Source: an uncultured virus (IMG/VR IMGVR_UViG_3300032069_000001) (Duplodnaviria > Heunggongvirae > Uroviricota > Caudoviricetes). From it: a DNA stretch of 64,000 bases. The number at the start of each line of letters is the position of its first letter. The stretch's first letter is position 1. Shown here piece by piece: positions 40,111 through 55,984 of this stretch. The notes under the pieces were generated by a model, which saw only the letters and a list, made by a program, of their open reading frames with translations, was not told the origin of the DNA and searched no databases. The stretch spans positions 1 through 64,000 of IMG/VR virus record IMGVR_UViG_3300032069_000001; one strand, given 5' to 3'. Made by a program: the position numbers and the translations under genes.

Positions 40111-40162
40111 ACGTTATACCCCGAATTATCTCCTACGCCCTCCACAAAAGCTCCTTTTTCCG

Positions 40163-41105: not shown

Positions 41106-41294
41106 ACTCTACGCCTCCCCTCCCCTACTACTACCCGACTACTACCTTACTACTCCCGTATTAGTAGAGAACTTTTAACGCTAACTGCCACACCCATAAA
41201 CTACCTTCCGTAAATAGAAAACTTTCAATACCTATAAGCATAATTATAATCAGCCCTTCTGAACTTACATAACCCTTATCACTATCGCATCTTC

Positions 41295-41597
41295 TCATTT
41301 TTCCTCCTTTAAAACACAGGGCAGGATAGTGAGAGATTTGTCTTTGGCAAAGACAGATATAGTAGAATTTTCCTGCTCAAATTGAAGTGGAGCAACTTCA
41401 ACCTTTAACTCCTGCCCTGTTTTGGTAAAACCTGAATAATTCCCGAATGTATAATAAACATTTATAATTCCGCTGATTACATTACCATAACAGTCATAAT
41501 GCTTCCCGCATTTTGGACAGTAATATCCACCTGTATAAGCAATCAATTTTTCCCCACAAGAAAAACAATTTACTATAATCATTTTAAGCCACCTCAA
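41295..41597 (-). CDS. Zn-ribbon hypothetical protein
   Basis: CFSCG..YCPKCG. Confidence 0.45.
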   Translation of the reverse strand: MRWLKMIIVNCFSCGEKLIAYTGGYYCPKCGKHYDCYGNVISGIINVYYTFGNYSGFTKTGQELKVEVAPLQFEQENSTISVFAKDKSLTILPCVLKEEK

Positions 41598-41699
41598 AAC
41601 CTTTATAAAATCTACAGAATAAATGACTGGAAGTGCTGATATTTACTGGGGTTCGGAGAAGCCTCCAGAAATGTAAAAATGAGGCGGATTTCCGATAGT

Positions 41700-42470
41700 C
41701 CCCACCCCCCAACGAGCCGTTCCGCCGTAGTGTTCCGCCCGTTTTACGCAAGCCCCGCCCCGACCAGACCGACCCGAGCCTCTGAAAGCCCTGTTGCTGT
41801 ATGACGTATTGAAGCCCTGCCCTGTTGACCCTTAAGCCCGCCGTATTATAGCAGTAATAAGCCCCATCAATAGCATCAGCCCGAGAAAAGCCCTGATAAA
41901 ATAAGGACTTCTGAACGTCTCCGCCCGCCCGCTGTTGTTTTTCCCCTTGTTTTTCCTTGCTTATTCTTAAGAATTTCTTAAGAATATTAAGAATACTTAA
42001 GCCCCTATATAGCATATTAAGAAGCCAGCACGCCCCGCTTTCACCTGTTGCCCATTGCCCACCGTTGCCCGTTTGCGACGCCCGCCCGCTATTATTAAGA
42101 ATATTAAGAGCACGCCCGCCCCTGTTGCCTGCTATTGTTTGAGCTGTTGCCGTTGCCGTTGTTGTTGCCTGCTGTTGCCTGTAATAAGCCCCGCCCGCTG
42201 TTGCTTGTTTGTTAGTGTTTGATATTCTTATTATTCTTAAGAGCACGCCGACCCCGCCCGCCCCTGCTTTAGACCCGCCCGCCCCGCTTTTAGCTGTTTT
42301 AATATTCTTAAGAAGCTTTAGGACGCCCGCCGTTGCTATTCTTAAGAAGCCCGCCCCTGTATTAAGACCCTTAAGAAGCCCCGCCAAGAGCCAAGAGCTA
42401 CAAGAGCCAAGAGCTAAAAGCTTCCTTGTATTCTTTACCTTGTTATATTTGCCCGCTTGTTTTACTTTCA
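41700..42470. repeat. Low-complexity tract rich in GCCCG and TTCTTAAG(AA) motifs; candidate genome end/pac region
   Basis: Many ttcttaag/ttaagaa and gcccgcc units; caagagcc(t)a tandem at ~42385-42415. Confidence 0.6.
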
Positions 42471-43286
42471 TATTTGCCCCGCTTCTGTATTTGCCCCGCC
42501 GACGTTGCCCGCTTCTATTACATCATCAAGCGACAAGCCCGAGACGTTGCCCGCTTCATTATTGCCCGCCCCGCTTGCGACCGCTTTTTTTTCTTTTTGC
42601 CCGCCGTTGCCGTTGCCCGCTTCTGTATTGCTTGCGACGCTTGCGACCGCTTCAATTATATTTTCATTATTTATACCGAGCACGCCCCGCTTTCGCTTTA
42701 TTGCTTCAATTACTGCTTCTTTTAGATTTTTTTTCAATTCAGCTTTATTCCCTGATTGCATATTATTTATTATTGCAATTAAATTTATTGAACGCCCGCC
42801 CGAGCTTCCGACCCCGCCCGCCCCTGCTTCCGTATCTTTTCTTAATTCTTGTATTCCCTGATAATACTTGCTTAATAATGGAGTAGGTTTAATAAACCTT
42901 AATTCAGCTGTATTATTAAGCTTGTCAAGTAATATCGTTTCAATTTTTTCTAAAATATTCTTTTGACCCGAGACCCTGCGGACTTTATCCGACAAGCCCG
43001 TTGTTAAAATAAATTCATTTACTTTTTTAATAAATTCAGCTTGTTTTTTCCACTTTGCCAGAGTTTGCGGGGCAATATGCAGAGCTTTTGAAATATCAGA
43101 ATTATTGTATTTGTCAAGAGACAAGAGAAAAGCAGATTGAAGCTTTTTAGTATTCCATTTGAAAATTTTTTCCGAGCCAGACGCCGACGCTTCTAAATAA
43201 TTTTGACCTAATTCAAGAGCCGAGTTTATCCCCGCCCCTGTATCAGCGACTACGCCCGCCGTGTTTTCCGTTTTTGGTTTTACCAT
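42468..43286 (-). CDS. Putative terminase small subunit (HTH)
   Basis: NSDISKALHIAPQTLAKWKKQAEF HTH resembling TerS N-termini; first gene of the arm leading to terL. Confidence 0.6.
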   Translation of the reverse strand: MVKPKTENTAGVVADTGAGINSALELGQNYLEASASGSEKIFKWNTKKLQSAFLLSLDKYNNSDISKALHIAPQTLAKWKKQAEFIKKVNEFILTTGLSDKVRRVSGQKNILEKIETILLDKLNNTAELRFIKPTPLLSKYYQGIQELRKDTEAGAGGVGSSGGRSINLIAIINNMQSGNKAELKKNLKEAVIEAIKRKRGVLGINNENIIEAVASVASNTEAGNGNGGQKEKKAVASGAGNNEAGNVSGLSLDDVIEAGNVGGANTEAGQI

Positions 43287-43391
43287 AATAAATAAGCCCG
43301 CCCCTGTTTAAATTATTTTTATTGTTTTGGTTTTTGGTTTTATTATGGTTTTGGTTTTGACCCCGAGACCGTGAAGCCCCGAGCACGCCCC

Positions 43392-43414
43392 GCTTGTCTA
43401 TCCGATAGACAAGC
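43392..43414. promoter_or_regulatory. Perfect inverted repeat just downstream of leftward promoter
   Basis: gcttgtctatc-c-gatagacaagc. Confidence 0.6.
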
Positions 43415-43435
43415 CCGAGCCGTTTAATATGTTTT

Positions 43436-43464
43436 ATTATACAGTATTTAATTGAGCTTGTCAA
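43436..43464 (-). promoter_or_regulatory. Consensus sigma70 promoter (leftward)
   Basis: TTGACA-17nt-TATAAT. Confidence 0.85.
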
Positions 43465-43726
43465 TAGTAAAACGCTTTATTTTATCTTATCTTATAAGAG
43501 ATAATACGCCTGCTACCGTATAGCATTTAAGCAAGCGAAAACCCTTATAGTATATAGCGTTTTAAGCATATTCTTAATAGTTATTATTCTTAATTACTAA
43601 TAACTAATAAGCTATATAAATTAAGACGTTTTAAGCATATTAAGAATAAGCTATATACTATATAGCATATTACATTTTTAGCATATTAAGAAAATAAATT
43701 TATTTTTGAAAAAATACGATTTACTA

Positions 43727-43754
43727 TTGACAATTAGGAAATAAGTGTTATAAT
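43727..43754 (+). promoter_or_regulatory. Consensus sigma70 promoter (rightward, early arm)
   Basis: TTGACA-16nt-TATAAT with TG extension and AT-rich upstream element. Confidence 0.8.
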
Positions 43755-43856
43755 ATATTATGAGAAGGGATAAGAAAAGATGAGAAAAGAAAAAAAAGAA
43801 AATAAAAAAATCAAAGAGCCCGAGAAAATAAAAACAGCGGGCAAAGGAGCGGAAAA

Positions 43857-44948
43857 ATGAAAACGGAAATAAAAGCAGTAGCCGACAAGTTTAAAGAATT
43901 GCAGGACATAAACAAAGTAGCAAAGGCATTGAGCATACATATAAGCAATGCTTACAGACGTTTAGCCCAAGCCCGAGCATTAGGACTGCTTGACGATAAG
44001 AAGCCCGCCGACGCTTCCGAGCTTACCGACAATAACCCTATTACAAGCGAGGACGCCGTTTTTTATCCCGCCGATTTTATCCCGAAAACAGACGACCCCG
44101 ATATTTTAAACTATAAGCCCCGCCCCGAGTATAAAATTATGGTTGACGCTTTAGAGCACGGCGAAAATGTTATGTTGATAGGCGAAGCGGGCACGGGCAA
44201 AACAAGCGGAGTTAAATTTTACGCAAGCCAAGCGAAGCTTCCTTTTTTACATATCTCTTGTGATAATCTTTTAGAGTTTGGCGAGGTTTTAGGTTATCAA
44301 GGATTGAAAAACGGCAATACTCATTTTACGGAAGGGGCATTGATAAAGCTTGCTTGCGAAAATCCTGCAATAGTTTTATTTGATGAAATTACAATGATTG
44401 ACGCAGGCAAAAACGGACGCCTGAACGTGTTTGCAGAAAATAGGAAATTTTTTGTAAAAGAAGCGAACGGCGGGGCAGGGCGATATTACACGCTACACCC
44501 GAAAACAAAAATAGTATTTGCAGGCAACCCGCCGACAGCTTTATATGTAGGGGCGGGCAAGCTTAACATTGCTTTAATATCCCGAACACGTGTAATATGG
44601 ACGCCGACCTTTACGCCCGCCGAATTGAAAAGAATTTTTAACGGCGAGCCGAGAAGCGACGAGGTAATTAAATTTTACACGGAAGCAAAGGAAGCCATTG
44701 AAACGCAAAAATTAAGGACGACATTTTCAATAAGAGACGTTAAAAAAATATTTGACGCCTTAAAGCGAGGTTATAGCATTAAGGACGCCTTAACGACAAG
44801 CTACCTTAACGCCGTGAAAATGACCGCAGGGCAGGAAGTTTATGACAGCTTTTTAAAATTATCTTTAATGATATTTAAGCAAGCAGACGAAAAAAATAAA
44901 ACGCCCGCAGACCCGAACGCAGAAGCGGACAAGGGAGCGACGAAATGA
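43857..44948 (+). CDS. MoxR/CbbQ-type AAA+ ATPase with N-terminal HTH
   Basis: GEAGTGKT, VLFDEI, AGNP..YVG..LNIALISR. Confidence 0.88.
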   Translation: MKTEIKAVADKFKELQDINKVAKALSIHISNAYRRLAQARALGLLDDKKPADASELTDNNPITSEDAVFYPADFIPKTDDPDILNYKPRPEYKIMVDALEHGENVMLIGEAGTGKTSGVKFYASQAKLPFLHISCDNLLEFGEVLGYQGLKNGNTHFTEGALIKLACENPAIVLFDEITMIDAGKNGRLNVFAENRKFFVKEANGGAGRYYTLHPKTKIVFAGNPPTALYVGAGKLNIALISRTRVIWTPTFTPAELKRIFNGEPRSDEVIKFYTEAKEAIETQKLRTTFSIRDVKKIFDALKRGYSIKDALTTSYLNAVKMTAGQEVYDSFLKLSLMIFKQADEKNKTPADPNAEADKGATK

Positions 44949-46744
44949 AAAACAGAGACCTTGAAATTTTAGCCAGAGCATTAAGCAAAAATACTGGTAT
45001 AAATATTTTTTTCAAAGGCGAGGGAGCTTACACGGACGGCAATAATATTTATTTACCCGAGAATATTAACCCCGATATTATTGAGCCCTTACTTGCGACG
45101 CTATTGCACGAAGCATACCACATTAAGCATACGCAGTTTACCATTGAAATACACCCCGAGACATTAAAATTTATTGCTAACGCATTAGAGGATATAAGAA
45201 TTGACGCCCGAGCCATTGGCGATTATAACGGGGCACGTGATTTATACAAAAAACTAATTGACTACTACAGCCGAACATTGCACAGCCCCGAAGCCGTAGC
45301 AAAGGCAGACAAGGGAATTTTAGCCCTTAAGGATTTAATATTGAAAGGTTATGGAGCGGACTTTTACGACGCTTACAAGGCGACACGTCCCGACGTTTTA
45401 GAGCTTCACGCCAAGCACGCCGAGCTTTTTGACTACATCATTAAGAAAGTAAAAGAAGCAAAGAACACGGACGACCTTAAACAATACGCTTTAAAAATAC
45501 ACGACGTAATTTTTGGACATTTAAAAGAGCAAGCGGAAAAAGAAAAGCAGGAAGCTAAAGAACAGGCAAAGCAGGCGAGACAGGGAGCAGGACAAGCAGG
45601 CAAAGACGCCGACGCCAAGCAGGACGCCGTAAACGAGCTTTACGAAAAAGCCGACGACGTTAAAAGGGAGCATAACAAAAAAGCGGGAGCGTATAAGCGA
45701 GCGAAAGACCCCGAGAAGCAAAAAGAGCTTGAAAAGGAAATGAACGAGCTTAAAAAAGATTTTGAACAAAAGAAAAAAGAGCTTGACAAGGCGAACAAAG
45801 AAAGAGACAACGCCCGAGAAAATGCACGCCGAGCCCAAAACAACGCCGACGAAAAAGAAAGGCGAGCCGATAATAATAATCTTGACAGGGAGCTTGATAA
45901 TATTATTGACGAAATAGCGGGAGCGGATATTGAGTATAAGAACGAAAAGGGGCAAAACGTGAAAGCGACGGCGGGCGACCTTGCGGGATACGGTTTAAAC
46001 GGTTTAAATAACGGCGACCTTGTAGCCCCGCCAGACGCTAAATTATGGACGGAAATAAGCTTTAGCGTAAAAGAATTATTTTTACAATTCTTAAAAAATC
46101 ACAAAGCACAGCCCCGAATACATCAGCAGGGAAAAATTAACGCTAAAAGAATACATCAATATTTTGACCTTGACCATTTATTTAAACAATACAAAAAAGA
46201 CGCTATAAAGCCGACCGAGCTAATTTTTGTTTTAGATAATAGCGGGAGTATGAAAGGCAATAATAAAAGAGAAACGACAATAAACGCATTTTTGGAGCTT
46301 CACAAAGCCATTGACGAAGCAATTTACAACGGCGATATAAACGCCGATACGTTTAAATATTCTGTTATGCTTTTTGGACGTGAAGCGGAATATTTTAAAA
46401 CATTTGACGAGGAATTTAACGAAAATAACTTTAGGAAAAATTATACTTGCGAGGAAGGAAGCACGAACATTGAGCCCGCTATAAATTTAATTGAAAAAGA
46501 CGAGCCAGACACGAACACAAAAAGAATTGTTATTATTTTAACCGACGGCGAATTACAATTTGATAATTATGAAAAGCTTTATAAAACTATTGACGACAGC
46601 CCCGCAAAGTATATTTTAATTGGAATAATGCACAGCGGACACGACAGAGACGGCGACCTTGCGAAAAGGTTTGAAAGCTATAATATAAGAGATATTAAAG
46701 AGCTTGACGACGTATTTTTAAAAGCTATTGAGGAAAACATTTAA
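44945..46744 (+). CDS. vWA protein with N-terminal HExxH peptidase-like domain (CobT-like)
   Basis: AYTDG..HEAYH..NALEDIRI; DNSGSM, GSTN, LTDG MIDAS motifs. Confidence 0.88.
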   Translation: MKNRDLEILARALSKNTGINIFFKGEGAYTDGNNIYLPENINPDIIEPLLATLLHEAYHIKHTQFTIEIHPETLKFIANALEDIRIDARAIGDYNGARDLYKKLIDYYSRTLHSPEAVAKADKGILALKDLILKGYGADFYDAYKATRPDVLELHAKHAELFDYIIKKVKEAKNTDDLKQYALKIHDVIFGHLKEQAEKEKQEAKEQAKQARQGAGQAGKDADAKQDAVNELYEKADDVKREHNKKAGAYKRAKDPEKQKELEKEMNELKKDFEQKKKELDKANKERDNARENARRAQNNADEKERRADNNNLDRELDNIIDEIAGADIEYKNEKGQNVKATAGDLAGYGLNGLNNGDLVAPPDAKLWTEISFSVKELFLQFLKNHKAQPRIHQQGKINAKRIHQYFDLDHLFKQYKKDAIKPTELIFVLDNSGSMKGNNKRETTINAFLELHKAIDEAIYNGDINADTFKYSVMLFGREAEYFKTFDEEFNENNFRKNYTCEEGSTNIEPAINLIEKDEPDTNTKRIVIILTDGELQFDNYEKLYKTIDDSPAKYILIGIMHSGHDRDGDLAKRFESYNIRDIKELDDVFLKAIEENI

Positions 46745-46837
46745 CGGACAAAGCGGGGAGCACAGGGCGGGCACGGACGGACACAGCCCCCGCCCAAGCC
46801 CCGCAAAGCCCGCCAGAGCGGGCAAAGGAGCGAAAAA

Positions 46838-47314
46838 ATGAGCAATCTAACAGAGCAAGCCAAAAGATTTACGGAAAAGAAAAGCATTAACGCCTTAATT
46901 GGCGGGAGCTTGACCGTAAAAGAAGCGGACACGGACACCGAGACCGCAAGCAAGCCCGAGACAGCAGGCAAGGGAGCGAGCCGATACTTTAGGTACGCCC
47001 GCAAAGACGAGCCCGCACAGGACACAGCGGAAACCAGCAGAGGCGACGACAGCGAGATAAAAGGCACGGCGAAAAATAAGAATATTAAGAAAAATAAGAA
47101 CGCCGAGCCCGATTTTAGTAATGTTGACCCGATATTTTTTGTTGAGCCGTTTAATAAGTGTTGTTTTTGCGACGAACGAGACCCGAGAAATTTAACAGCA
47201 GTAATAAGCGAACTTGCGAGCTACTGCGATAAACATTGGGAAAGCCGTTATTTAATTAAGCAAGGTTTGCTTTTAACAACGGGCAAGCCCGAGACAAAGG
47301 GAGCGACGAAATGA
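46838..47314 (+). CDS. Hypothetical early protein with C-terminal Zn finger
   Basis: CCFCD..YCDKH; AAGGAGCG RBS. Confidence 0.55.
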   Translation: MSNLTEQAKRFTEKKSINALIGGSLTVKEADTDTETASKPETAGKGASRYFRYARKDEPAQDTAETSRGDDSEIKGTAKNKNIKKNKNAEPDFSNVDPIFFVEPFNKCCFCDERDPRNLTAVISELASYCDKHWESRYLIKQGLLLTTGKPETKGATK

Positions 47315-47496
47315 AAACAGCGACGGCAGGACATAAGCCGAGCATTTACGCCGAGAAGCCAGACGGCGAGCTTTACGGACTTTTGACAAAGTATTTTAAC
47401 GAAGCCCGAGAAAAGCCGAGCCGTGTTTTTTATTACTTAAAGCAATGTTATTTAATAGAGCGGGAATTTAAAGCCCGCAAGGGAGCGAGAAAATGA
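47311..47496 (+). CDS. Small early protein
   Basis: Repeated RBS cassette; ATGA coupling. Confidence 0.55.
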   Translation: MKTATAGHKPSIYAEKPDGELYGLLTKYFNEAREKPSRVFYYLKQCYLIEREFKARKGARK

Positions 47497-47630
47497 CCTT
47501 TTCACTTTTAGCATTACTTACAGCGATTTTAATTGCAATAGGTTTGCTTAAATGCACGGACGCCGAAACCGTAAAAGCCGACGAGCCAAGACACCAAGAG
47601 ACCGACGAAAACCCGTTAAAACGAATTTAA
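47493..47630 (+). CDS. Small membrane/lipoprotein-like peptide (45 aa)
   Basis: Manual translation MTFSLLALLTAILIAIGLLKC...; RBS cassette and ATGA overlap. Confidence 0.45.
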   Translation: MTFSLLALLTAILIAIGLLKCTDAETVKADEPRHQETDENPLKRI

Positions 47631-47671
47631 GAAAGGTTTTTAAGCCGAGAAAACGGCAAAGGAGCGATAAA

Positions 47672-48121
47672 ATGAAAAACGAAGCGAAAGACGAGAAGCT
47701 TAAAAAGTATAACGACCCGCTTGTTTACAGTAGCACAGAATTATTTGAAGCTATTGACACGATACCGATACCGCACCCATATTGCATAACGCCCCGCCAT
47801 ATTGCAACGGCGAGCGATAAGCACAGCGGAATTTTAGACGCCGACGCCATAAGAGACGCCGAGAAAACTAACAAAGCCGTTTGTGATATTTGCAAGCATA
47901 TAAATAAAAAAGACCCGAGTAAACCGATTTTATCTTATGACGAGCACGGGCAAGCTTTACTTTTAGCAGTTAAAAGCGACAAAGAGCTTAAAGACATACC
48001 CGAGTTAAAAGATTATTTGCTTGAAATTAAGCCCTTACTTATTACCGATAATTTTCAGGGCATAGCATTTAAACAGATTAAGCCCGCCGAAGCCGAAGCG
48101 AGCAAGGGAGCGGAAAAATGA
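47672..48121 (+). CDS. Hypothetical early protein
   Basis: RBS cassette before ATG 47672; PHPYCITPRH..CDIC..H putative metal site. Confidence 0.65.
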   Translation: MKNEAKDEKLKKYNDPLVYSSTELFEAIDTIPIPHPYCITPRHIATASDKHSGILDADAIRDAEKTNKAVCDICKHINKKDPSKPILSYDEHGQALLLAVKSDKELKDIPELKDYLLEIKPLLITDNFQGIAFKQIKPAEAEASKGAEK

Positions 48122-48321
48122 AAAAAGATATTTTAGAGCTTAATAAACTGATAGCAGACCTAAAAATTGAGCTTTACCATTTATTATTAGTAAAAGCGGA
48201 AAAAACAAAAAACAATCTTACGAATAACGAAATTGATATTGCTTTTAAATTGGCGGGCGATAAAGATATTCAAAATCTTTTAAAAGCAAAAATGCAAGCC
48301 AAAAAAAAGGGAGCTGATTAA
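48118..48321 (+). CDS. Small early protein
   Basis: RBS cassette. Confidence 0.55.
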   Translation: MKKDILELNKLIADLKIELYHLLLVKAEKTKNNLTNNEIDIAFKLAGDKDIQNLLKAKMQAKKKGAD

Positions 48322-48322
48322 A

Positions 48323-49285
48323 ATGGAAAACGCCGAGATTTTAAGACCAAAAAAATTGAGCGACTTTATAGGCAAGCCAAAACTTAAGCTTGTTTTAAAT
48401 GCAATGATTGAAGCGACAAAGAGCCGAGCCGAGCCCATAGACCATATTTTATTTACAGGCAACGCAGGATTAGGAAAAACAACGCTTGCGAAAATCATTG
48501 CTAATGAGCTTCACAAAGACATTAAAGCAATGATAGGCAATAACATCAATGAAAGCATTGCCCGAGAACTTACAACGCTTAAGGACGGCGATATTTTATT
48601 CATTGACGAAATACACAGAATACCGACGAAATGGCAAGAGCTTCTTTATCCTGCAATGGAAAGCTTTAAAACGTTTTACAACGTAGGAAATAGACGCTTT
48701 AGCACAAACATTGAAATTGACACGCCCCGCTTTACTTTAATTGGAGCGACAACGGACATAGGACTTTTAACAAAGCCCTTGCGAGACCGTTTTGGAATTG
48801 TTTTTGAGCTTGACCCTTACACGATAGACGAGCTTAAAAAGATTATTGAAAATAATATTTTGACGCTTGACTTAAAGCTTAAGCCCCTGCAATTTGACGA
48901 CATAAGCACAGCGATAGCACAGCGGGCACGCTTTACGCCGAGAATTGCTAACAATCTTTTAAAACGTATAAGAGATTTTACAGCGGGCGACGTCAACGAC
49001 ATCACGCTTGACCGTGTTTTAAGAGTTTTTGAAATACTTGAAATCAACGAAAACGGAATTGACAGCAACGACATTAAATATTTAACGCTACTTGAAAAAT
49101 ACGGGATACCTTTAGGCATTACTAATTTATCAGCGAGCACGGGCATTGACAGAACGACTGTTGAAAGAGTTATTGAGCCGTATTTATTGCAAAACGAATA
49201 TATCTTAAGAACGGGCAGGGGGCGAATTATAACACAAAAAGGAAAAGACGTTATTAAGAATATTAAGAAAGGGGGCAAGGTATGA
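48323..49285 (+). CDS. ruvB: Holliday junction branch migration helicase RuvB
   Basis: LRPKKLSDFIG..GNAGLGKTTLA..FIDEIHR..FTLIGATT..LRDRFG..EPYLLQ..RTGRGR. Confidence 0.93.
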   Translation: MENAEILRPKKLSDFIGKPKLKLVLNAMIEATKSRAEPIDHILFTGNAGLGKTTLAKIIANELHKDIKAMIGNNINESIARELTTLKDGDILFIDEIHRIPTKWQELLYPAMESFKTFYNVGNRRFSTNIEIDTPRFTLIGATTDIGLLTKPLRDRFGIVFELDPYTIDELKKIIENNILTLDLKLKPLQFDDISTAIAQRARFTPRIANNLLKRIRDFTAGDVNDITLDRVLRVFEILEINENGIDSNDIKYLTLLEKYGIPLGITNLSASTGIDRTTVERVIEPYLLQNEYILRTGRGRIITQKGKDVIKNIKKGGKV

Positions 49286-49335
49286 ACTATCAAGACCGTT
49301 TTAAAAATGTAAATTCTTTTCAAGGGGGGCGAAAT

Positions 49336-49854
49336 ATGAGCAAAGCAGGGAGCACGGAAATTGAAGCAGTAAAGGAATTGGCATTGATACAAAAACAAAA
49401 AGCTATTGAGCTTTTTAATAACATTGGCGAGGTTAAAGCCGTAATTTATTTTGTTGACAGGCAAAAACGGCAGGGGATTATCCCTGTTTTTCAGCTTAAC
49501 GCCCCAAAAGAAATACAGCGGGCAATAGTCAACGACATTTTAAACGACGTTAAGCCCGCCGTAGTTATTTTTATATCCGAAGCATACGCCTTAAGTGGCG
49601 ACAAAGAGCACCCCTTGACGCCCGAGCAGTTAGCCGAAGCCGAAAAAAACGGACTTAAGGACATAACAGGGCGAAAGGAAATACTTATTATAAACGCCGA
49701 AAGCAAAAATTGCAGTTATACCGTGAGTATTGAAATAAACAGAGACCCGACAGGCAAGGGAACTTTAGGACAAGAGCATTATTTAATTAAAAACGGCAAA
49801 GCTACCGACAGCAGAGATATAAATAAATTTATTAACCCTGCTATTTTTGAGTAA
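49336..49854 (+). CDS. Hypothetical early protein
   Basis: FISEAY..RKEILII; start at 49336 or 49282. Confidence 0.6.
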   Translation: MSKAGSTEIEAVKELALIQKQKAIELFNNIGEVKAVIYFVDRQKRQGIIPVFQLNAPKEIQRAIVNDILNDVKPAVVIFISEAYALSGDKEHPLTPEQLAEAEKNGLKDITGRKEILIINAESKNCSYTVSIEINRDPTGKGTLGQEHYLIKNGKATDSRDINKFINPAIFE

Positions 49855-49932
49855 TGGGGGCATTTATGAGTAATAGGAGCACTTTAAGAATAAGAAACAA
49901 TATGAAAAATACTTTAAAATAAGGGGGGCAAA

Positions 49933-50148
49933 ATGTTTAATATTTATTCTGATTGGGAAAAATATCACAATGTTGAAATATCAACGCCATTATCACAAGA
50001 GACAATTATAATTATAAGACCTTTTGACAAAAGTAAAAAAGTAATAACTTTTAGCGTCAATACAAGGGAAATAATGAAAAGGGGATTAAAAAGAACTGTA
50101 AATAAATTATTAAAAGGGGGGAGCTATGAAAATAAGAGCACAGTATAA
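49933..50148 (+). CDS. Small early protein
   Basis: G-run RBS. Confidence 0.5.
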   Translation: MFNIYSDWEKYHNVEISTPLSQETIIIIRPFDKSKKVITFSVNTREIMKRGLKRTVNKLLKGGSYENKSTV

Positions 50149-50536
50149 AGGAAAAAAAGAAAGCTACAAAATGGATAAGCTTACTTTTGCCGAGTTTATG
50201 CGAATATACCGACCGAACGGCACAGGGAGCATTGGAATAATGGTTGACGGAAAAATGGACTTGATTGACGAAATAACCGAAGTAGTTTGCGACTTTTGCA
50301 ACGACGAAATCCCGCCGAGCACTTGCGAAGCGGACAAATGCAACGGCAAAACCAGAACAGCGGGCACAGCTTGCGACCTGCAAGAAAATTGTCAGCACAA
50401 AAAGCAAAGCACTATTTACATCACAGGCACTTATGCTTTTTGTCAAAAATGTTTTGACGAAAGCTATGAAATTGTTGAACGAGACCCGAACGACTTGAAG
50501 CTTAAGACGATAAAGACAGAAGGAGGAAAACAATGA
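50126..50536 (+). CDS. Cys-rich Zn-finger early protein
   Basis: CDFC..CQKC. Confidence 0.55.
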   Translation: MKIRAQYKGKKESYKMDKLTFAEFMRIYRPNGTGSIGIMVDGKMDLIDEITEVVCDFCNDEIPPSTCEADKCNGKTRTAGTACDLQENCQHKKQSTIYITGTYAFCQKCFDESYEIVERDPNDLKLKTIKTEGGKQ

Positions 50537-50841
50537 AAACAAAAGAAAAGAAAGCCGAACAGTTAAGTTTTCTTGATAATTTTAAGAATATCAAGAAAAC
50601 CGAGAAAGCCAAGCCCGCAGGAGCGAGCGACGAGAAAAAGGGAGCTTGTCAACGGTGTGGACGAACATTGACGAGACCCGAGAGCATACAGGCGGGATAT
50701 GGCGAGACGTGTTATAAAAAGATACACGGCACAGGATTTACAACGTCAACGAGACGAGCGAGAAAGCCCGAGCCCATTGACGAGAGACAAGGAAAGCTTT
50801 TTGACGACAAAGGGGGCGAGAACAATGGCAATAAAAAGTAA
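50533..50841 (+). CDS. DUF6011-like Zn-finger protein
   Basis: CQRCGRTLTRPESIQAGYGETC. Confidence 0.75.
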   Translation: MKTKEKKAEQLSFLDNFKNIKKTEKAKPAGASDEKKGACQRCGRTLTRPESIQAGYGETCYKKIHGTGFTTSTRRARKPEPIDERQGKLFDDKGGENNGNKK

Positions 50842-51004
50842 AGTTATCAATCAAAGTGAAATGACGGGCGAGTGTTGGAATATTCAATTTTGGGGAAAAG
50901 AAGCTTGCGAAAAATGCGAATACAAAAACACGAAACAATGCGGGGGCAAGGCAATAAGAAAAACAGGCAAAAATGCGAACGGTTTTAAAATACCGCTTAA
51001 TTAA
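50825..51004 (+). CDS. Small Cys-rich early protein
   Basis: RBS before ATG 50825; C..CEKC..CGG. Confidence 0.55.
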   Translation: MAIKSKVINQSEMTGECWNIQFWGKEACEKCEYKNTKQCGGKAIRKTGKNANGFKIPLN

Positions 51005-51018
51005 AGGGGGTGTTTAAT

Positions 51019-51297
51019 ATGCACTTTACGATTGAACTACCGAGAACTGTAAAAGGTTTGAAATGTGGCAGATGTAGCGAACAAAAACACGAGCCCGTTA
51101 TTAACGCACACGACGGTTTTACGGGTGTTAGCGGGAACTGTTGCTTGACCTGTATAAAAGAGCTTCTTATTGTTGCGAACACGACAAAAGAAAATCCTGC
51201 ATTTATGGAGCTTCAAAAGAGACGAAAAGAAGCCGAGCAAAAGAAAAAGGAAATTAAAAAAGCAGGAAAATTCAAAGTGGAGCTGTTAAAACTATGA
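51019..51297 (+). CDS. Zn-finger early protein
   Basis: CGRC..CCLTC. Confidence 0.5.
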   Translation: MHFTIELPRTVKGLKCGRCSEQKHEPVINAHDGFTGVSGNCCLTCIKELLIVANTTKENPAFMELQKRRKEAEQKKKEIKKAGKFKVELLKL

Positions 51298-51459
51298 TTT
51301 ATAAAGTGATTGTAAAGAAAGAAAAGAGAAACGTGATTTTTGCGATTATTAGGGAGCTTAACATTGCCCTTGAAATAATCAAGTATTGGAAAAAGAAAGG
51401 TTTTACTGCCGAGCTTTTAGGCGGGAAGCCGAAAAGACGGCAATAATTTATCACGGGGG

Positions 51460-51840
51460 GTGGAGAAAATGTTATATAAAGCGATTTGCGACGGGGATAT
51501 TGGAATTAAGGGAACGCCGAAAATAAAAAGCGACAAGCAAAACGGATATAAACAGACAGCTTGCTATTTTGTTGACAGTAGCGGTTTTGGACGTGATGAC
51601 GAGCTTGCTTTACCGTTTGCAAAGTTTTTAAAACAAGTTAAAAAGGGATATTATTACGGGATTGCGAAAGCGGGGCAATTTCAAGTTTATATTAACGAAT
51701 ACAAAAAAATTGAAGCTGATGATACGTCTTTGCTTAAGCTTGACAATAAAGAATACAAAATAAAAAAGAAAAAAAGAATAAGGTGCAAGATATGCGGGAA
51801 CTTTCACGGCGACGGCACTTATGGAAATTGCGGAAATTAA
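51460..51840 (+). CDS. Hypothetical early protein
   Basis: FVDSSGFG..E.AL..GQFQVY. Confidence 0.6.
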   Translation: MEKMLYKAICDGDIGIKGTPKIKSDKQNGYKQTACYFVDSSGFGRDDELALPFAKFLKQVKKGYYYGIAKAGQFQVYINEYKKIEADDTSLLKLDNKEYKIKKKKRIRCKICGNFHGDGTYGNCGN

Positions 51841-51857
51841 AAAGGGGGTGGTAAAAA

Positions 51858-52295
51858 ATGAATACTTTATACTTTGACCTTGAAACGTTTGGAATAACAC
51901 AAAAGAGCTTAAAGCTTTTTCGTGATGAGATTTGCAAAAGAATTGAACACGAAATTGCAATATTCTGCGTGCCGACAGCGGATATTGTTTGCGGATTTTT
52001 GATTGTAGATAAAACGACCAATGACTTGACTTGGACTGGAGACGGCTTCCGAAGTGATGAAGGGGGAGAAGGCGGGGCGGGATACCGAACGGCGAGAGAA
52101 TTATTAAGAATTTTAGGAATACAGACGTTTGACTTAATGCTTGATGATATGCCGAAGCCGTTAGTAGAAAACGGAATTAGCAATGAAACGGAGCTTAAAA
52201 AACTTGTTAAGTATGTTATGGATACTTACAAAGACGAGATACTTTATAATAAGCCCGCAAGCCATAACATAAGATATATAAGGTTAGACAAATAA
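51858..52295 (+). CDS. Hypothetical early protein
   Basis: RBS cassette; GDGFRSD.GGEGGAGY. Confidence 0.65.
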   Translation: MNTLYFDLETFGITQKSLKLFRDEICKRIEHEIAIFCVPTADIVCGFLIVDKTTNDLTWTGDGFRSDEGGEGGAGYRTARELLRILGIQTFDLMLDDMPKPLVENGISNETELKKLVKYVMDTYKDEILYNKPASHNIRYIRLDK

Positions 52296-52316
52296 AATTA
52301 AAAGGGGGTGGTTTAA

Positions 52317-52727
52317 ATGACAAGGAAACAGGAAAGGAAAAAAGCAAAAGAAGTTTTAAAGGAGCTTAACGAATTAAAAAAGCTTTACGAAAAGGAAAAA
52401 GAGCAAAAGGACGTGTTAGTCAATCTTAAGACGCTAATATTGGACGGAAGCGACGACAAGCTTGGAGCTGAACTTGCGAAGCTTGACGGCGAGGTGCTTG
52501 CTGATTTGATAGGAGAAATTGCCCGAACAAAAAAGGTGTGGGTTGCGAACTGGTTTAATAAAGGACACGTTGAGGACTTGACGGGCGAAACCTTGACCGA
52601 CGAACAAATGGCTGACTTTGTGAACTATGCAGAGGACGACACGGGGGAAATGGACGACATAAGCGAACACGTGAGCGAGATTTTTCAAAATGCCGTTGAC
52701 GACGGAAGCATAACGGGCAAAAAATAA
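52317..52727 (+). CDS. Acidic early protein
   Basis: RBS cassette. Confidence 0.65.
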   Translation: MTRKQERKKAKEVLKELNELKKLYEKEKEQKDVLVNLKTLILDGSDDKLGAELAKLDGEVLADLIGEIARTKKVWVANWFNKGHVEDLTGETLTDEQMADFVNYAEDDTGEMDDISEHVSEIFQNAVDDGSITGKK

Positions 52728-52856
52728 AAGGGGGTATTGTGAAAAATTATACAGGTGGCAAAACAAAATGTAAATATTATGATACTTGCGGAACTAAAGA
52801 AAATTGTGCAAGATGTAAAGGATATGAAATAAAAGAACAAAAAGGGGGTGGTAAAA

Positions 52857-53069
52857 ATGACCTTAAAAGAAAAAATTAAGGAATTTTCACGGGAAATTGA
52901 CCTATACGAGCTTGATAAAAATGATAAGCAAAAAATAAAGGACACGGGAAGCAGGGCAGACGTTTACATAAGCGGTATGGAGCGAGCATTTGAACTTGTT
53001 GCCGACTTAATAGAGGAATTTAAGGTTGATATTGACCTTGATACAAAAAGGAAAGTAAGAAAACAATAA
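52857..53069 (+). CDS. Small early protein
   Basis: RBS cassette; true ATG 9 nt after the track's GTG. Confidence 0.6.
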   Translation: MTLKEKIKEFSREIDLYELDKNDKQKIKDTGSRADVYISGMERAFELVADLIEEFKVDIDLDTKRKVRKQ

Positions 53070-53085
53070 AAAGGGGGTGGTTAAA

Positions 53086-53295
53086 ATGGTTATGGCAATA
53101 GCTTATGGCAAAAAGAAAAAGAATTACAGGGTTGCTTTTACCGTTTATGCAACGGTTGAACTTGAAGCAAAAAACAAAGATGAAGCGGAAACAAAAGCAA
53201 AAGAGTATATGAACGGCAAAGCTAATTTTGTTGACCATAAAGATTTTTACACGACAATAAAAGAAACAGAGTGTAATGACGTATTTAAAATTTAA
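53086..53295 (+). CDS. Small early protein
   Basis: RBS cassette; ELEAKNKDEAETKA. Confidence 0.6.
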   Translation: MVMAIAYGKKKKNYRVAFTVYATVELEAKNKDEAETKAKEYMNGKANFVDHKDFYTTIKETECNDVFKI

Positions 53296-53310
53296 AAGGG
53301 GGTGGTTAAA

Positions 53311-53589
53311 ATGATTAAAATAGCGAACAGCAATAAGAAAATAATTGCGACGGGTAATATGAAAATAAAGAACTCAATGATTGGCGGGATTGATGAAACG
53401 AAACAGCTTGCTATTGACATAATTGACGAATTTGAGAACTTGCTTGACGAAAAGAATATTACGATACCGAGCCGAGACCGTGAAGGCGGGAAAGACGAAG
53501 CCAGAATATACGGCGAGGAGTATTACAATCTTGAGGATAGCATTACTAATATTCTTAAGAAAAATCTTAAAAGGGGGGCAATAAAATGA
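53311..53589 (+). CDS. Small early protein
   Basis: RBS cassette; IIDEFENLLDEKNITIP..IYGEEY. Confidence 0.6.
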   Translation: MIKIANSNKKIIATGNMKIKNSMIGGIDETKQLAIDIIDEFENLLDEKNITIPSRDREGGKDEARIYGEEYYNLEDSITNILKKNLKRGAIK

Positions 53590-53924
53590 AAAATGAAAAG
53601 TGGGTAAAAATTGGGGAGTGCGGTGTTGACAGCGGGCAACTAATGATTGTTGACCCTTGCTATGTAAAAGATTTTAGAAATGACAGCTACACAGGGAAAA
53701 AAGACCGAGACGGTATGGCAGGGGAATTTTCTTACAGCGGTATTTGCGGGCTAACGATAGGCAAAGAAATGGGCGGGCAGATTAAGAATAAGATTGGAGC
53801 AGAGATTGCCGTTGCCTTTAGTAGCGGTTGGGGCGACGGTGTTTATCCTGTTTATGCGAGGATAAAAGATTTTGGAAAAGACGGCGGGAAAAGAGTAATA
53901 GAAGTAAAAATTGTAATGGAATAA
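53586..53924 (+). CDS. DUF4241-like protein
   Basis: GVDSGQLMIVDPCY..SGWGDGVYPVY. Confidence 0.7.
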   Translation: MKNEKWVKIGECGVDSGQLMIVDPCYVKDFRNDSYTGKKDRDGMAGEFSYSGICGLTIGKEMGGQIKNKIGAEIAVAFSSGWGDGVYPVYARIKDFGKDGGKRVIEVKIVME

Positions 53925-53937
53925 GGGGGTGGTTAAA

Positions 53938-54264
53938 ATGGAGCATACAGACGCAGTATATACGTATGAAGCCATTGCTAAAAAGGTTGGGCTTGACGAA
54001 CTGACTACCTTGCGATACCTTAAGTTTATGAAAACAAGGTGGGCAGACCAAGAGGAACAGCATTGTAAATGCAGTTATGCGACCGAGTGGGCAAAAAGAT
54101 TTAAGAGGAAAAGCGAATTTTCTGATGCCGACACAAGCGGACAGCAGACGTTGCTTGCGATTGACGCCGAGATAACGAAAGAAAGGTGTAAAGGATTGAA
54201 AGTTATTAAAACAAAGAAAGAAAATAAGAAACAAAAAGGGGGTGGGTGCAATGAAAAAAATTGA
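53938..54264 (+). CDS. Early protein, paralog of 1500..1826
   Basis: GLD..YLKFMKTRW..C..YATEWAKRFK. Confidence 0.7.
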   Translation: MEHTDAVYTYEAIAKKVGLDELTTLRYLKFMKTRWADQEEQHCKCSYATEWAKRFKRKSEFSDADTSGQQTLLAIDAEITKERCKGLKVIKTKKENKKQKGGGCNEKN

Positions 54265-54526
54265 TGGATATAGTTTTACTCTCTTTTCAATTATTTTCTT
54301 TTACATAAGCTATCGGGGTGTTGGCATTGCCTTAACGATATTTGATTTTACCTTAAGTATTGGCTATGACAAATACGAGGGCTTGCTATTTAACACTACG
54401 GCACAAGAAAATCAAATGCGAAAATGGAAAGAGCAGGAAAGAAAGGAGCGAGCGGAAAGAGACAAGAAGCTTTATGGAAATACCGAGTGGAAGCCCGAGC
54501 CGTTTGACCCTAAAAAAAGGAGATGA
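54251..54526 (+). CDS. Small, possibly membrane-associated protein
   Basis: Hydrophobic N-terminal half. Confidence 0.5.
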   Translation: MKKIDGYSFTLFSIIFFYISYRGVGIALTIFDFTLSIGYDKYEGLLFNTTAQENQMRKWKEQERKERAERDKKLYGNTEWKPEPFDPKKRR

Positions 54527-55272
54527 TTGGTATGGATAAACTTATAACGCTTAAGAACGACATAAGAACTGTTTTTGTTGGAGACATACACGGAGACCTG
54601 ATAACGTTAAACAAGGTTTTTAATCGTTATAACGTAGGAGATACCCGCTTTGTCTTTTTGGGCGACTACATTGACAGGGGAGAATATTCAAATGACGTTG
54701 TTGCTACGTTGCTTCAAGGTAAACAGATATTCCCCGACAGAATAATAATGCTACTTGGTAATCACGAACTTGGCGACTGCGGGGATTTTTGGTTTGATGA
54801 ACGTTGCAATAAATACAAGGAACTATTTAAAAGCTTGCCGTTAGCGGTTGAACTTGGAAACATTGTTGCAACGCACGGAGCTATCCCTATTCTTAATAAT
54901 ATTAAGAATTTTAACGATATAGGTGTTAATATTGGCTTTGACCCATTACTTCAGATTATTGTTTGGGGAGACCTTGACCATTACGGCTTTGTCCAAAGTG
55001 GCATTGATAATACGAACGGTTTAAGACCTTGCCTATCAAAGAAATACATTGATGAAGCTTTGGCAAGCATAAATAAGAAAATTCTAATACGAGGGCACGA
55101 CCCTAAAAATCCTACCGTCTCTATTGGTGGGAAATGTTTAACTCTTATGACTAACGACATTTGGGCAGAATATTACAAAGACGCTACGCCTAAAATTGCG
55201 GTGGTGGAAGCGGGGGAAAATCCCGAACAAGCAAGCGACATTAAAATTATTGATTTACAGGGGGCATTATGA
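54523..55272 (+). CDS. Ser/Thr protein phosphatase (PPP/calcineurin-like metallophosphoesterase)
   Basis: GDIHG, GDYIDRG, GNHE, HGA, RGHD. Confidence 0.9.
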   Translation: MIGMDKLITLKNDIRTVFVGDIHGDLITLNKVFNRYNVGDTRFVFLGDYIDRGEYSNDVVATLLQGKQIFPDRIIMLLGNHELGDCGDFWFDERCNKYKELFKSLPLAVELGNIVATHGAIPILNNIKNFNDIGVNIGFDPLLQIIVWGDLDHYGFVQSGIDNTNGLRPCLSKKYIDEALASINKKILIRGHDPKNPTVSIGGKCLTLMTNDIWAEYYKDATPKIAVVEAGENPEQASDIKIIDLQGAL

Positions 55273-55276
55273 AACG

Positions 55277-55612
55277 TTAATCAACGACATTAAAATCGTC
55301 CAATGGCTCTAACCACTTAATAAAAAAATATTCATTTGATTTAATTTTTGATTTTCTATCGTGGTTTTTTATCTTATGGCACATACCATTTGTTTCGCCT
55401 TTACGAATTGCCCATACATCAAGGCATAATTTTTTACCGTCCAGAACCAACTCAATAAAGTTAATATTCTCTCTTATAAAAAGGGCTAAATCATCTAAAA
55501 GTAATCCGACAGTATCATCATCTCTTTTGCTTTTAAGAATAAAAGTAGGATTATAAATAGCAACTCCGTCTTTTATTTTGTATCTTTCTTTGTCTCCAAA
55601 TATTTCTCCCAC
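55277..55612 (-). CDS. Hypothetical protein (ends LDDFNVVD)
   Basis: ORF track. Confidence 0.5.
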   Translation of the reverse strand: MGEIFGDKERYKIKDGVAIYNPTFILKSKRDDDTVGLLLDDLALFIRENINFIELVLDGKKLCLDVWAIRKGETNGMCHKIKNHDRKSKIKSNEYFFIKWLEPLDDFNVVD

Positions 55613-55908: not shown

Positions 55909-55984
55909 TTTGCCTCCTTTCTTAATTTTATTCTTAATAATTCTTAAAATTTTTTAGGAATTCGTAGGAATTCTGCCCTAATTT

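What the first reader, a model, noticed from the sequence alone, without database searches (positions are those of the whole stretch)
41700..54000. Sharp, strand-specific compositional switch beside terS
Seen by eye: from ~41,700 the plus strand becomes rich in GCCCG/CGA/GAC/GAG and poor in TC words (CTC, GTC, TCG). For example there are about 4 TC in 45001-45600 versus about 9 in the single line 41041-41100. The bias holds both where genes are on the minus strand (41.7-43.3 kb) and where they are on the plus strand, and it fades by ~54 kb. Inference: this marks a physical genome end or first-entering DNA under strand-specific pressure. Candidates are TC-context deamination, TNTC-specific DarT-type ssDNA modification, or orientation bias against asymmetric restriction sites as in T7/EcoP15.
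Basis: partly seen in the sequence, partly recalled or inferred. Interest (0 to 1): 0.72.

Follow-up and report, generated by a model that had tools for sequence, protein, structure and literature searches.

The report
Restriction-proofed early segment of a phage
A 13.6-kb stretch holding this uncultured phage's first-expressed genes has been rewritten by selection so that many short DNA words are missing, some on both strands and some on one strand only. This is best read as armour against host DNA-cutting defences on the DNA that is exposed first.

Summary
On the + strand, TC falls to rho 0.31 between 41,733 and 55,305, against 1.0 elsewhere. 5'-GNTC-3' occurs 0 times there, against 264 on the opposite strand and 104-139 expected. 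The ban holds in the 11.5-kb rightward operon, in the oppositely oriented terS-like gene, and in non-coding DNA including an untranscribed spacer. It survives codon correction: synonymous shuffles give 26.6±4.4 GNTC, observed 0.

TC chemistry is not the whole story. A TC-free word, CAACA, is also banned on the same strand in the same zone (0 vs 30). Other words are banned there in both orientations but common elsewhere: GAAGA, GAACC, GAATG, CAACT, and more widely CCWGG and GTNAC. The whole 97-kb genome also lacks about 25 restriction-type words, including nine 4-bp palindromes.

Best reading: an early, probably first-entering segment hardened against restriction. Ordinary sites are removed both ways. 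Sites of orientation-dependent systems (Type III, ISP, MANTIS-like) are kept co-oriented, as in T7 with EcoP15I. A TNTC-type DarT and simple TC deamination are not supported. The physical end could not be mapped and the reading agent is unidentified. Earlier notes of this scan report smaller TC/CC-free early-gene islands in other phages.

The parts
41733..55305 (+). Core zone: no 5'-GNTC-3' on the + strand (264 on the - strand), with TC rho 0.31
   Evidence: The last GNTC(+) is at 41,732 and the next at 55,306. 104-139 were expected.
43857..55272 (+). Rightward early operon of about 20 genes. It encodes a MoxR-like AAA ATPase, a VWA protein, a RuvB homologue, DUF6011, DUF4241, a Metallophos phosphatase and many unknown proteins. 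Each gene has an AAGGAGCG-type ribosome site.
   Evidence: Codon usage is rewritten (Ser AGC 70%, Asp GAC 76%, Phe TTT 94%).
43727..43754 (+). Perfect 12/12 sigma-70 promoter (TTGACA, 16-nt spacer, TATAAT, with TG) for the rightward operon
43436..43464 (-). Perfect 12/12 sigma-70 promoter for the leftward terS-like unit. It shares an upstream inverted repeat with the rightward promoter.
   Evidence: repeat I2
43465..43726 (.). Spacer between the divergent promoters, presumably untranscribed, and still TC-poor on the + strand
   Evidence: TC 4 against 12.1 expected; GA 8 against 10.7
42468..43286 (-). terS-like HTH protein on the opposite strand. It obeys the + strand ban: Glu is GAA in 24 of 25 codons across this gene and ORF 41584-42471 pooled, Val is GTC 54%, Ser is TCG 29%, and its C-terminal half is Gly/Ala-rich.
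41584..42471 (-). Doubtful ORF, or a non-coding repeat array (ATTCTTAAG-type and GCCCGCCC-type repeats). The left edge of the zone falls inside it.
   Evidence: weak codon periodicity; D+E only 2.7%
41290..55880 (.). Interval free of GAAGA/TCTTC on both strands (244 sites elsewhere). GAACC, GAATG and CAACT have near-coincident free intervals.
   Evidence: Synonymous shuffles give GAAGA 21.4±3.7 against 0.
40943..56068 (+). Interval with no CAACA on the + strand (30 on the - strand). This is a second one-orientation ban, and it contains no TC.
39940..62367 (.). Wider domain free of CCWGG (39,940-61,182) and GTNAC (40,684-62,367) on both strands

Best explanation
The zone is the phage's early segment. 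It consists of two divergent units driven by consensus host-type promoters and lies beside the packaging genes. It is probably the DNA that enters or is exposed first, and possibly a long terminal repeat.

Selection has removed from it the recognition words of host DNA-cutting defences more thoroughly than from the rest of the genome. The rest would be covered by early anti-defence products or would enter later. Words of ordinary restriction enzymes are deleted in both orientations.

Words of defences that cut only when two sites face each other (Type III, Type ISP, MANTIS-like) are kept in one orientation only. GA-rich words (GANC, CGA, GAG) stay on the purine-rich coding strand of the large operon. 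Their complements (GNTC, TCG, CTC) are forbidden on that strand. The few genes that run the other way must conform and lose Asp and Glu.

Shown: the bans, their limits, their independence from codon use and transcription, and their co-location.

Inferred: that restriction-type defences are the agent, that entry is stepwise, and that the left edge near 41.7 kb is a physical end.
For: 1. The bans act at site level and are absolute. GNTC(+) is 0 against 264 on the other strand and 104-139 expected. It is 0 against 26.6±4.4 under synonymous shuffles that keep the zone's own codon usage.
2. The ban follows the absolute strand, not the gene direction. The terS-like gene avoids GANC on its own coding strand (0 against 9.3±2.4). 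Only its GA/TC words have skews that follow the operon. All its other words follow normal minus-strand genes (r=0.43 with the rest against 0.04 with the operon).
3. The ban is at DNA level. It holds in intergenic DNA (TC 11 against 35; GNTC 0 against GANC 23) and in the spacer between the divergent promoters (4 against 12.1).
4. It is not TC chemistry alone. CAACA is 0:30 and GGCGT 0:47 on the same strand and in the same zone.
5. Both-orientation bans are confined to the zone: GAAGA, GAACC, GAATG, CAACT, and more widely CCWGG and GTNAC. Of the 33 words with a significant largest gap, 26 have that gap on or overlapping the zone. 13 of those gaps start between 41.29 and 41.92 kb, and their right edges are staggered as far as 62.9 kb.
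6. The whole genome lacks about 25 restriction-type words. The closest relative lacks a partly different list, so site avoidance is a dominant force in this lineage.
7. There are precedents. T7 carries 36 EcoP15 sites in one orientation (PMC3874151). In Autographiviridae, absence of a motif from the first-injected region decides sensitivity to Type I restriction (PMC12455610). In T5 only the first-step-transfer DNA is restriction-sensitive (10.1101/866236). MANTIS prefers inverted sites, and one MANTIS system is assigned the site CAACAG (10.64898/2026.09.23.753747).
8. terL is 36% identical to SPO1-group terminases. The zone sits relative to terL where SPO1's 13.2-kb terminal repeat sits.
Against: - No terminus or order of entry could be shown. 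Only contigs of one run were available.
- GNTC has three specified bases, shorter than any Type III or ISP site I know of.
- The depletion is graded: GNTC is absolute, CTC and TCG nearly so, and WTCW about twofold. That pattern suits one enzyme with a loose preference better than a set of exact sites.
- SPO1's own terminal repeat shows no such bias.
- No relative close enough to show conservation or a breakpoint was found.
- No anti-restriction gene was recognised in the operon.
Confidence: 0.5

Rival explanations
1. One strand-specific enzyme with a loose short specificity attacks the + strand while it is single-stranded. Its core would be TC, with its best substrates GNTC, CTC/GTC and TCG. 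It could be a DarT-like ADP-ribosyltransferase with G instead of T at -2, an ssDNA nuclease like T4 endonuclease IV, or an ssDNA deaminase. The strand could be single-stranded as the 5' strand of the entering end, as the non-template strand of the heavily transcribed operon, or as a lagging or displaced strand from an origin in the repeat array at 41.9-42.4 kb. Selection removes the substrates.
For: - The context hierarchy is graded, as expected of one enzyme's preference.
- The X-N-T-C form matches the architecture of DarT's TNTC motif (my own knowledge: Jankevicius et al. 2016).
- The banned strand is the non-template strand of the 11.5-kb operon.
- Earlier scan notes report TC/CC-free message strands in the early genes of other phages (leads only).
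Against: - It does not explain CAACA or GGCGT (TC-free, same strand), nor the both-orientation bans with the same limits.
- In the leftward unit the banned strand is the template strand, not the exposed one.
- The untranscribed spacer is depleted too.
- No process is known that keeps exactly this 13.6 kb single-stranded on one strand.
Confidence: 0.22
2. Self-immunity. An early phage nuclease or nickase destroys host DNA at GNTC-type and other short words. The only phage DNA present at that time must lack these words on the strand that has to stay intact. This is the idea proposed for T5 A1 and its first-step-transfer DNA.
For: - The T5 hypothesis is stated in 10.1101/866236.
- The zone is full of unknown early genes.
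- Zone-limited bans fit DNA that co-exists with the enzyme.
Against: - No nuclease domain was recognised in the operon.
- It still requires stepwise entry.
- Many different words are banned, which suits many host enzymes better than one phage enzyme.
Confidence: 0.1
3. Exclusion of priming sites. The phage's DnaG-DnaB-type primase-helicase would recognise an S-T-C-type trinucleotide, as T7 primase recognises GTC. The + strand of a terminal repeat would be kept free of such sites so that it stays single-stranded and can invade or anneal to form concatemers.
For: - A T7 gp4-like primase-helicase fusion is encoded at 63,797-65,827.
- The strongest bans are CTC/GTC and GNTC.
- The zone carries a RuvB homologue.
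Against: - It explains neither the TCG, CAACA and GAAGA bans nor the both-orientation bans.
- The primase's specificity is unknown.
- No such strategy is known in any phage.
Confidence: 0.06
4. Mutational footprint. Repeated C-to-U deamination at TC on one strand (APOBEC- or DddA-like), or another strand-biased mutation process, has eroded TC to TT.
For: TT, TTT, CTT and ATT are enriched (TT rho 1.96; TTT 3.3). TC depletion by APOBEC3 is documented in human viruses (PMC7449416).
Against: - T is lower and C higher than in other genes.
- Ser has moved to AGC.
- There are no broken reading frames, and RuvB is well conserved.
- GNTC is absent absolutely, yet the shuffles show that many synonymous placements were available.
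- TC-free words are banned as well.
Confidence: 0.05
5. RNA-level avoidance. The early transcripts would avoid UC to escape Rho (YC binding) or a UC-specific ribonuclease.
For: The main operon's message strand is the TC-free strand. Earlier scan notes proposed Rho for similar islands.
Against: - CC is not depleted (rho 1.14).
- C/G is higher than in other genes.
- The leftward unit is depleted on its template strand.
- The untranscribed spacer is depleted.
- No + strand promoter lies near 41.7 kb.
Confidence: 0.04
6. Artefact: an assembly chimera, a foreign insert or systematic sequencing error.
For: Only one sample holds the sequence.
Against: - The zone shares the genome-wide absence of nine palindromic tetramers and about 15 longer words.
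- An independent Logan contig of 96.5 kb is identical across both edges.
- The genes are intact, with ribosome sites and conserved domains.
Confidence: 0.02

Closest known systems
T7 strand bias of EcoP15I sites (Type III restriction needs inversely oriented sites; PMC3874151)
   Same: An asymmetric word is present many times but only in one orientation, which would defeat enzymes that need head-to-head sites.
   Different: - Here the ratio is 264:0 for a word with three specified bases, plus CAACA 30:0 and GGCGT 47:0.
- The bias is confined to 13.6 kb.
- It is imposed on genes of both directions at the cost of amino-acid composition.
- No enzyme is known.
T5 first-step-transfer DNA and the leading regions of T7-like phages (10.1101/866236; PMC12455610)
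   Same: A first-exposed early segment must itself lack sites, while the rest of the genome may carry them. The segment has host-type promoters and lies beside or within a terminal region.
   Different: - Entry order and termini are not shown here.
- The number of banned words is far larger.
- Several bans are one-orientation only.
Genome-wide restriction-site avoidance in SPO1/Twort-group and other phages (for example the lack of GATC in Staphylococcus phage K; my own knowledge)
   Same: Palindromic 4-6-bp words are lost completely. terL is related to this group.
   Different: - About 25 words are absent from the 97 kb.
- A second, stricter tier of bans is limited to the early segment.
- SPO1's terminal repeat shows no TC or GNTC bias.
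MANTIS / BREX-related hemimethylating defences (10.64898/2026.09.23.753747)
   Same: These systems read asymmetric sites and prefer inverted pairs. One MANTIS system is assigned the site CAACAG, and CAACA is a one-orientation ban here.
   Different: The resemblance is one of words only. No host or system was identified.
DarT ssDNA ADP-ribosylation at TNTC (my own knowledge), and the APOBEC3 TC footprint in human viruses (PMC7449416)
   Same: A TC-centred target that acts on one strand.
   Different: TNTC is the best-tolerated context here. TC-free words and both-orientation bans share the same zone.

Membership tests
Orientation-only site bias (T7/EcoP15I type) | An asymmetric word is frequent in one orientation and absent in the other | tested here: met
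   GANC:GNTC on the + strand is 264:0. TGTTG:CAACA is 30:0. ACGCC:GGCGT is 47:0.
Orientation-only site bias (T7/EcoP15I type) | The bias follows the DNA strand, not the direction of the genes | tested here: met
   The bias holds in the minus-strand terS-like gene and in intergenic DNA.
Orientation-only site bias (T7/EcoP15I type) | The host has a defence that needs inverted copies of that word | not testable with these tools
   The host is unknown. The sequence comes from a single sediment metagenome run.
First-entering / first-step-transfer segment (T5, T7 type) | The segment lacks sites that are common in the rest of the same genome | tested here: met
   GAAGA, GAACC, GAATG, CAACT, CCWGG and GTNAC have 0 sites in the zone and 92-244 elsewhere.
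First-entering / first-step-transfer segment (T5, T7 type) | Early genes lie behind host-type promoters | tested here: met
   There are two 12/12 sigma-70 matches. No other promoter in the zone scores 12/12.
First-entering / first-step-transfer segment (T5, T7 type) | The segment lies at a physical end and enters first | not testable with these tools
   Only Logan contigs were available, with no read starts or depth. Indirect support: the left edges of the free intervals cluster at 41.3-41.9 kb while the right edges are staggered.
Long terminal repeat of SPO1-group phages | terL of the group, with a repeat of several kb a few kb from terL | tested here: inconclusive
   terL is 36% identical to the group. 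The zone lies 3.5 kb from terL and is 13.6 kb long, against 13.2 kb in SPO1. Duplication was not measurable.
APOBEC-type TC mutational footprint | TC is lost to TT by mutation, with no constraint on TC-free words | tested here: not met
   TC-free words are banned in the same zone. T is lower than elsewhere. Ser has moved to AGC.
DarT (TNTC) target avoidance | TNTC is depleted more than other NNTC | tested here: not met
   T at -2 is the most frequent base among the remaining TC sites (42 of 95). G at -2 is found in 0 of 95.
Rho (YC) avoidance in early transcripts | Both UC and CC are depleted on the message strand only | tested here: not met
   CC rho is 1.14. The leftward unit is depleted on its template strand, and the spacer is depleted too.
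Phage 7-deazaguanine (DpdA) or thymidine hypermodification at GA/TC | The phage encodes DpdA/TGT or a thymidylate-synthase-like hydroxymethylase | tested here: not met
   PF01702, PF00303 and PF00383 give no match in the complete 97-kb genome. An unknown enzyme cannot be excluded.

The most novel reading that the evidence does not exclude
Host cells (or the phage itself) possess an unrecognised agent that reads a two- to four-letter step (core TC, absolutely GNTC) on one strand of incoming phage DNA. The pressure is strong enough to rewrite 13.6 kb, including protein composition. The same agent class would explain the smaller TC/CC-free early-gene islands noted elsewhere in this scan. That would be a new kind of strand-specific innate defence acting on the leading DNA of phages.
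Probability: 0.25. Interest if true: 0.88.

Novelty: new variant of a known kind. Interest (0 to 1): 0.7.

Why it matters
Restriction-site avoidance and the special status of first-injected DNA are known, but two features here go further.

First, there is a two-tier pattern in one genome. About 25 words are removed everywhere. A stricter list applies only in the early segment.

Second, the strict list includes absolute one-orientation bans. These override codon choice and even amino-acid content in genes of the minority direction.

The missing words can therefore be read as a catalogue of what an unknown sediment host cuts. The same kind of map marks where a phage's leading DNA lies without any experiment.

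If the one-strand GNTC/TC ban proves to be due to something other than orientation-dependent restriction, it points to an undescribed strand-specific defence. It also offers a testable explanation for similar TC-free early islands in other uncultured phages.

Tried and rejected
- **Close relatives.** Single-protein scans of viral contigs with the VWA protein and with terL found nothing.
- **Alignment-based scans.** These gave only terL relatives at 65% identity or less and distant AAA proteins. None has a TC- or GA-poor domain. The genome-collection scan gave two short MAG fragments.
- **Terminus mapping.** The single holding run is kept as contigs only, so neither read starts nor local depth were available.
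- **Paralogue pair** 1500-1826 / 53929-54264. At 33% identity it is too diverged to polarise substitutions.
- **Chi-like skewed words** (AGCGG, GAAGCGG and others) follow gene direction, not the zone.
- **A + strand promoter near 41.7 kb.** None was found.
- **SPO1 terminal repeat** as a test of generality. It shows no bias.
- **Literature searches** for strand-specific dinucleotide depletion in phages, or for anti-phage TC deaminases, gave nothing direct.
- **Acidic DNA-mimic candidates** in the operon. None is convincing.
- **Phage tRNAs** as a cause of the codon shift. The genome has none.


Full report
**What the window is.** The window is the first 64 kb of a 97,213-bp virus record. Its 127-bp end overlap marks a circular assembly path. 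CheckV rates the record complete.

It is a contractile-tailed phage. Its GpA-type terL is 36% identical to SPO1-group terminases. It encodes a primase-helicase fusion, a PD-(D/E)XK nuclease and an integrase. It has no tRNAs.

All genes run on the minus strand except an 11.5-kb block at 43,857-55,272.

The sequence comes from one sediment metagenome run. An independent 96.5-kb contig of that run is identical over 38-58 kb.

**The observation.**
- On the + strand, TC rho is 0.05-0.40 per kb from 42 to 55 kb, against 0.72-1.22 elsewhere.
- Zone totals are TC 182 (rho 0.31) against GA 1141. CTC/GTC/TCG number 9/19/6, against GAG/GAC/CGA 256/315/350.
- The sharpest form is 5'-GNTC-3'. There is no copy on the + strand between 41,732 and 55,306, a stretch of 13,573 bp. 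The other strand carries 264, and the rest of the genome predicts 104-139.
- Context is graded. G at -2 never occurs. CTC and TCG are almost absent. WTCW is reduced about twofold. TNTC is the best-tolerated context.

**Codon use does not explain it.**
- In the operon, Ser is AGC in 70% of codons, Asp is GAC in 76% and Phe is TTT in 94%.
- Val is rare (3.7% of residues, against 6.8% in the rest). In the RuvB alignment several Val positions of Pseudomonas RuvB are Ile or Leu here.
- Codon-junction T|C is 41 against 85.4±6.9.
- Synonymous shuffles that keep the proteins and the zone's own codon usage give 26.6±4.4 GNTC, never fewer than 13 in 1000. The observed count is 0.

**It is not tied to gene direction or transcription.**
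- The terS-like gene (42,468-43,286, minus strand, HTH match) and the doubtful ORF next to it avoid GANC on their own coding strand: 0 against 9.3±2.4.
- Over these two ORFs pooled, GAA supplies 24 of the 25 Glu codons, and Asp plus Glu make up 6.5% of residues against 13.1% in the rest.
- Only the GA/TC words of this part have strand skews that follow the operon (GAGC 14:0, CCGA 15:0). All its other words behave as in ordinary minus-strand genes.
- Intergenic DNA obeys the ban (TC 11 against 35; GNTC 0 against GANC 23). So does the 262-bp spacer between the two divergent, perfect sigma-70 promoters (TC 4 against 12.1).
- The ban is therefore a property of one DNA strand over a bounded stretch.

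**It is not TC chemistry alone.** This is what decides between the candidate explanations.
- CAACA contains no TC. It is absent from the + strand from 40,943 to 56,068 but occurs 30 times on the other strand, in both sub-regions. Shuffles give 13.1±3.0. GGCGT is 0:47.
- Other words are absent in both orientations from the same stretch, although they occur 150-244 times elsewhere:
  - GAAGA/TCTTC, free from 41,290 to 55,880
  - GAACC/GGTTC, free from 41,650 to 55,444
  - GAATG/CATTC, free from 41,445 to 56,668
  - CAACT/AGTTG, free from 41,393 to 53,637
- CCWGG and GTNAC are absent from a wider domain of about 40-62 kb.
- Of the 33 words whose largest site-free gap is significant, 26 have that gap on or overlapping the zone. 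13 of those gaps start within 41.29-41.92 kb, while their right edges are staggered as far as 62.9 kb.

**Genome-wide avoidance.** The whole genome lacks, entirely or nearly:
- CATG, CCGG, CGCG, CTAG, GATC, GCGC, GGCC, GTAC and TCGA
- CTNAG, GANTC, GCNGC, GGWCC, GGATG and CASTG
- ATTAAT, CAATTG, CCAAGG, CTCTTC, GAATGC, GATATC and GTTAAC

The zone shares this list. This rules out a chimera or a recent foreign insert. The closest relative (terL 65% identical) lacks a partly different list.

**Reading.** The phage lineage is shaped by avoidance of restriction sites, and the zone carries a second, stricter tier.

A stricter tier limited to one segment makes sense only if that segment faces the defences before the rest of the genome is exposed or protected. 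This is the logic known for three cases:
- T5 first-step-transfer DNA (10.1101/866236);
- the first-injected region of Autographiviridae (PMC12455610);
- T7.

The zone fits the part in three ways:
- It holds both early units behind the only two perfect host-type promoters found in the scanned region, 40.8-56.5 kb.
- It adjoins the packaging genes.
- It sits, relative to terL, where SPO1's 13.2-kb terminal repeat sits.

The clustered left edges and staggered right edges suggest entry from about 41.7 kb rightwards, co-directional with the large operon. This is inference.

**The one-orientation bans.** These are what defences with site-orientation preference would select. Type III enzymes do not cut co-oriented sites, and T7 carries 36 EcoP15 sites in one orientation (PMC3874151). 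MANTIS behaves similarly, and one MANTIS system is assigned the site CAACAG (10.64898/2026.09.23.753747).

Keeping GA-rich words on the purine-rich coding strand of the majority operon is the cheap choice. The minority-direction genes then pay, exactly as seen in the terS-like gene. No transcription- or ssDNA-based model predicts that.

**Weak points.**
- No terminus, coverage step or entry order could be measured.
- The host is unknown.
- GNTC is shorter than any known orientation-dependent site.
- The graded context hierarchy would suit a single loosely specific enzyme acting on one strand. I keep that as the main rival (0.22) and as the most novel reading.
- SPO1's repeat shows no such bias, and no close relative was available.

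**Rejected or weakened readings.**
- A TNTC-type DarT is rejected.
- Simple deamination is largely refuted.
- Rho or UC avoidance is not supported.
- Phage-encoded DpdA or thymidine hypermodification is not supported: there is no TGT, ThyA or dCMP-deaminase match.
- An artefact is very unlikely.

**Relation to earlier notes of this scan.** Earlier notes report TC/CC-free early-gene islands of 0.5-2 kb in other uncultured phages, read as Rho avoidance or base modification. I used them only as leads. For this genome the DpdA idea fails and the Rho idea does not fit.

This case differs from those islands in four ways:
- its size, 13.6 kb;
- CC is not depleted;
- the ban crosses gene directions;
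- other word bans share the same zone.

**Verdict.** This is a new variant of known restriction-avoidance strategies. The agent behind the GNTC/TC ban is still unidentified.

Noticed in passing
whole genome (window 1-64000 and G000:C1:64001-97213): About 25 restriction-type words are absent from all 97 kb on both strands. They include nine palindromic tetramers (CATG, CCGG, CGCG, CTAG, GATC, GCGC, GGCC, GTAC, TCGA), several degenerate pentamers (CTNAG, GANTC, GCNGC, GGWCC, GGATG) and several hexamers. Each was expected 13-276 times.
   Followed up: partly
window 43436-43464 (-) and 43727-43754 (+): Twin divergent promoters each match the sigma-70 consensus 12/12. They share a 25-nt upstream inverted repeat (43458-43482 / 43709-43733). 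A partial third copy of the repeat lies at 41558-41576.
   Followed up: partly
window 41920-42420: A dense array of ATTCTTAAG-type and GCCCGCCC-type repeats lies inside a 295-codon ORF that has weak codon periodicity and only 2.7% Asp+Glu. It may be a non-coding protein-binding array (origin, packaging or injection-stop site) rather than a gene.
   Followed up: partly
window 48323-49285: The phage encodes a full-length RuvB homologue (E 1e-72 to solved RuvB structures). Its Walker A reads GNAGLGKT instead of GPPGLGKT. No RuvA was seen nearby.
   Followed up: no
window 43857-46744: The first two genes of the early operon are a MoxR-like AAA ATPase and a VWA-domain protein (a CobS/CobT-like pair). 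Almost no homologues were found: one at 44% identity.
   Followed up: partly
L001:6032-6748 against window 54523-55272: In the closest relative, the homologue of the Metallophos phosphatase lies upstream of terL on the same strand. Here it ends the oppositely oriented early operon and is only half as TC-depleted as its neighbours. This suggests a rearrangement that brought it into the zone.
   Followed up: partly
G000:C1:74470-75522 (L039:11470-12522): A tyrosine integrase is present in a 97-kb myophage with an SPO1-like terminase. The phage may be temperate.
   Followed up: no
G000:C1:75572-94570: GC-rich words (CGCCC/GGGCG, GCCCG/CGGGC, GAGCG/CGCTC) have 13-18-kb site-free gaps over the tail and baseplate genes. 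In the zone the same kinds of words are enriched.
   Followed up: no
window 57900-59000: Minus-strand genes just right of the zone show a milder depletion of TC on their coding strand (GA rho 0.31-0.47 on the + strand). They lie inside the wider CCWGG/GTNAC-free domain.
   Followed up: no
contig ends (1-127 and 97087-97213): The terminal overlap is exactly 127 bp. This looks like an assembler k-mer overlap of a circular path rather than a biological terminal repeat.
   Followed up: partly
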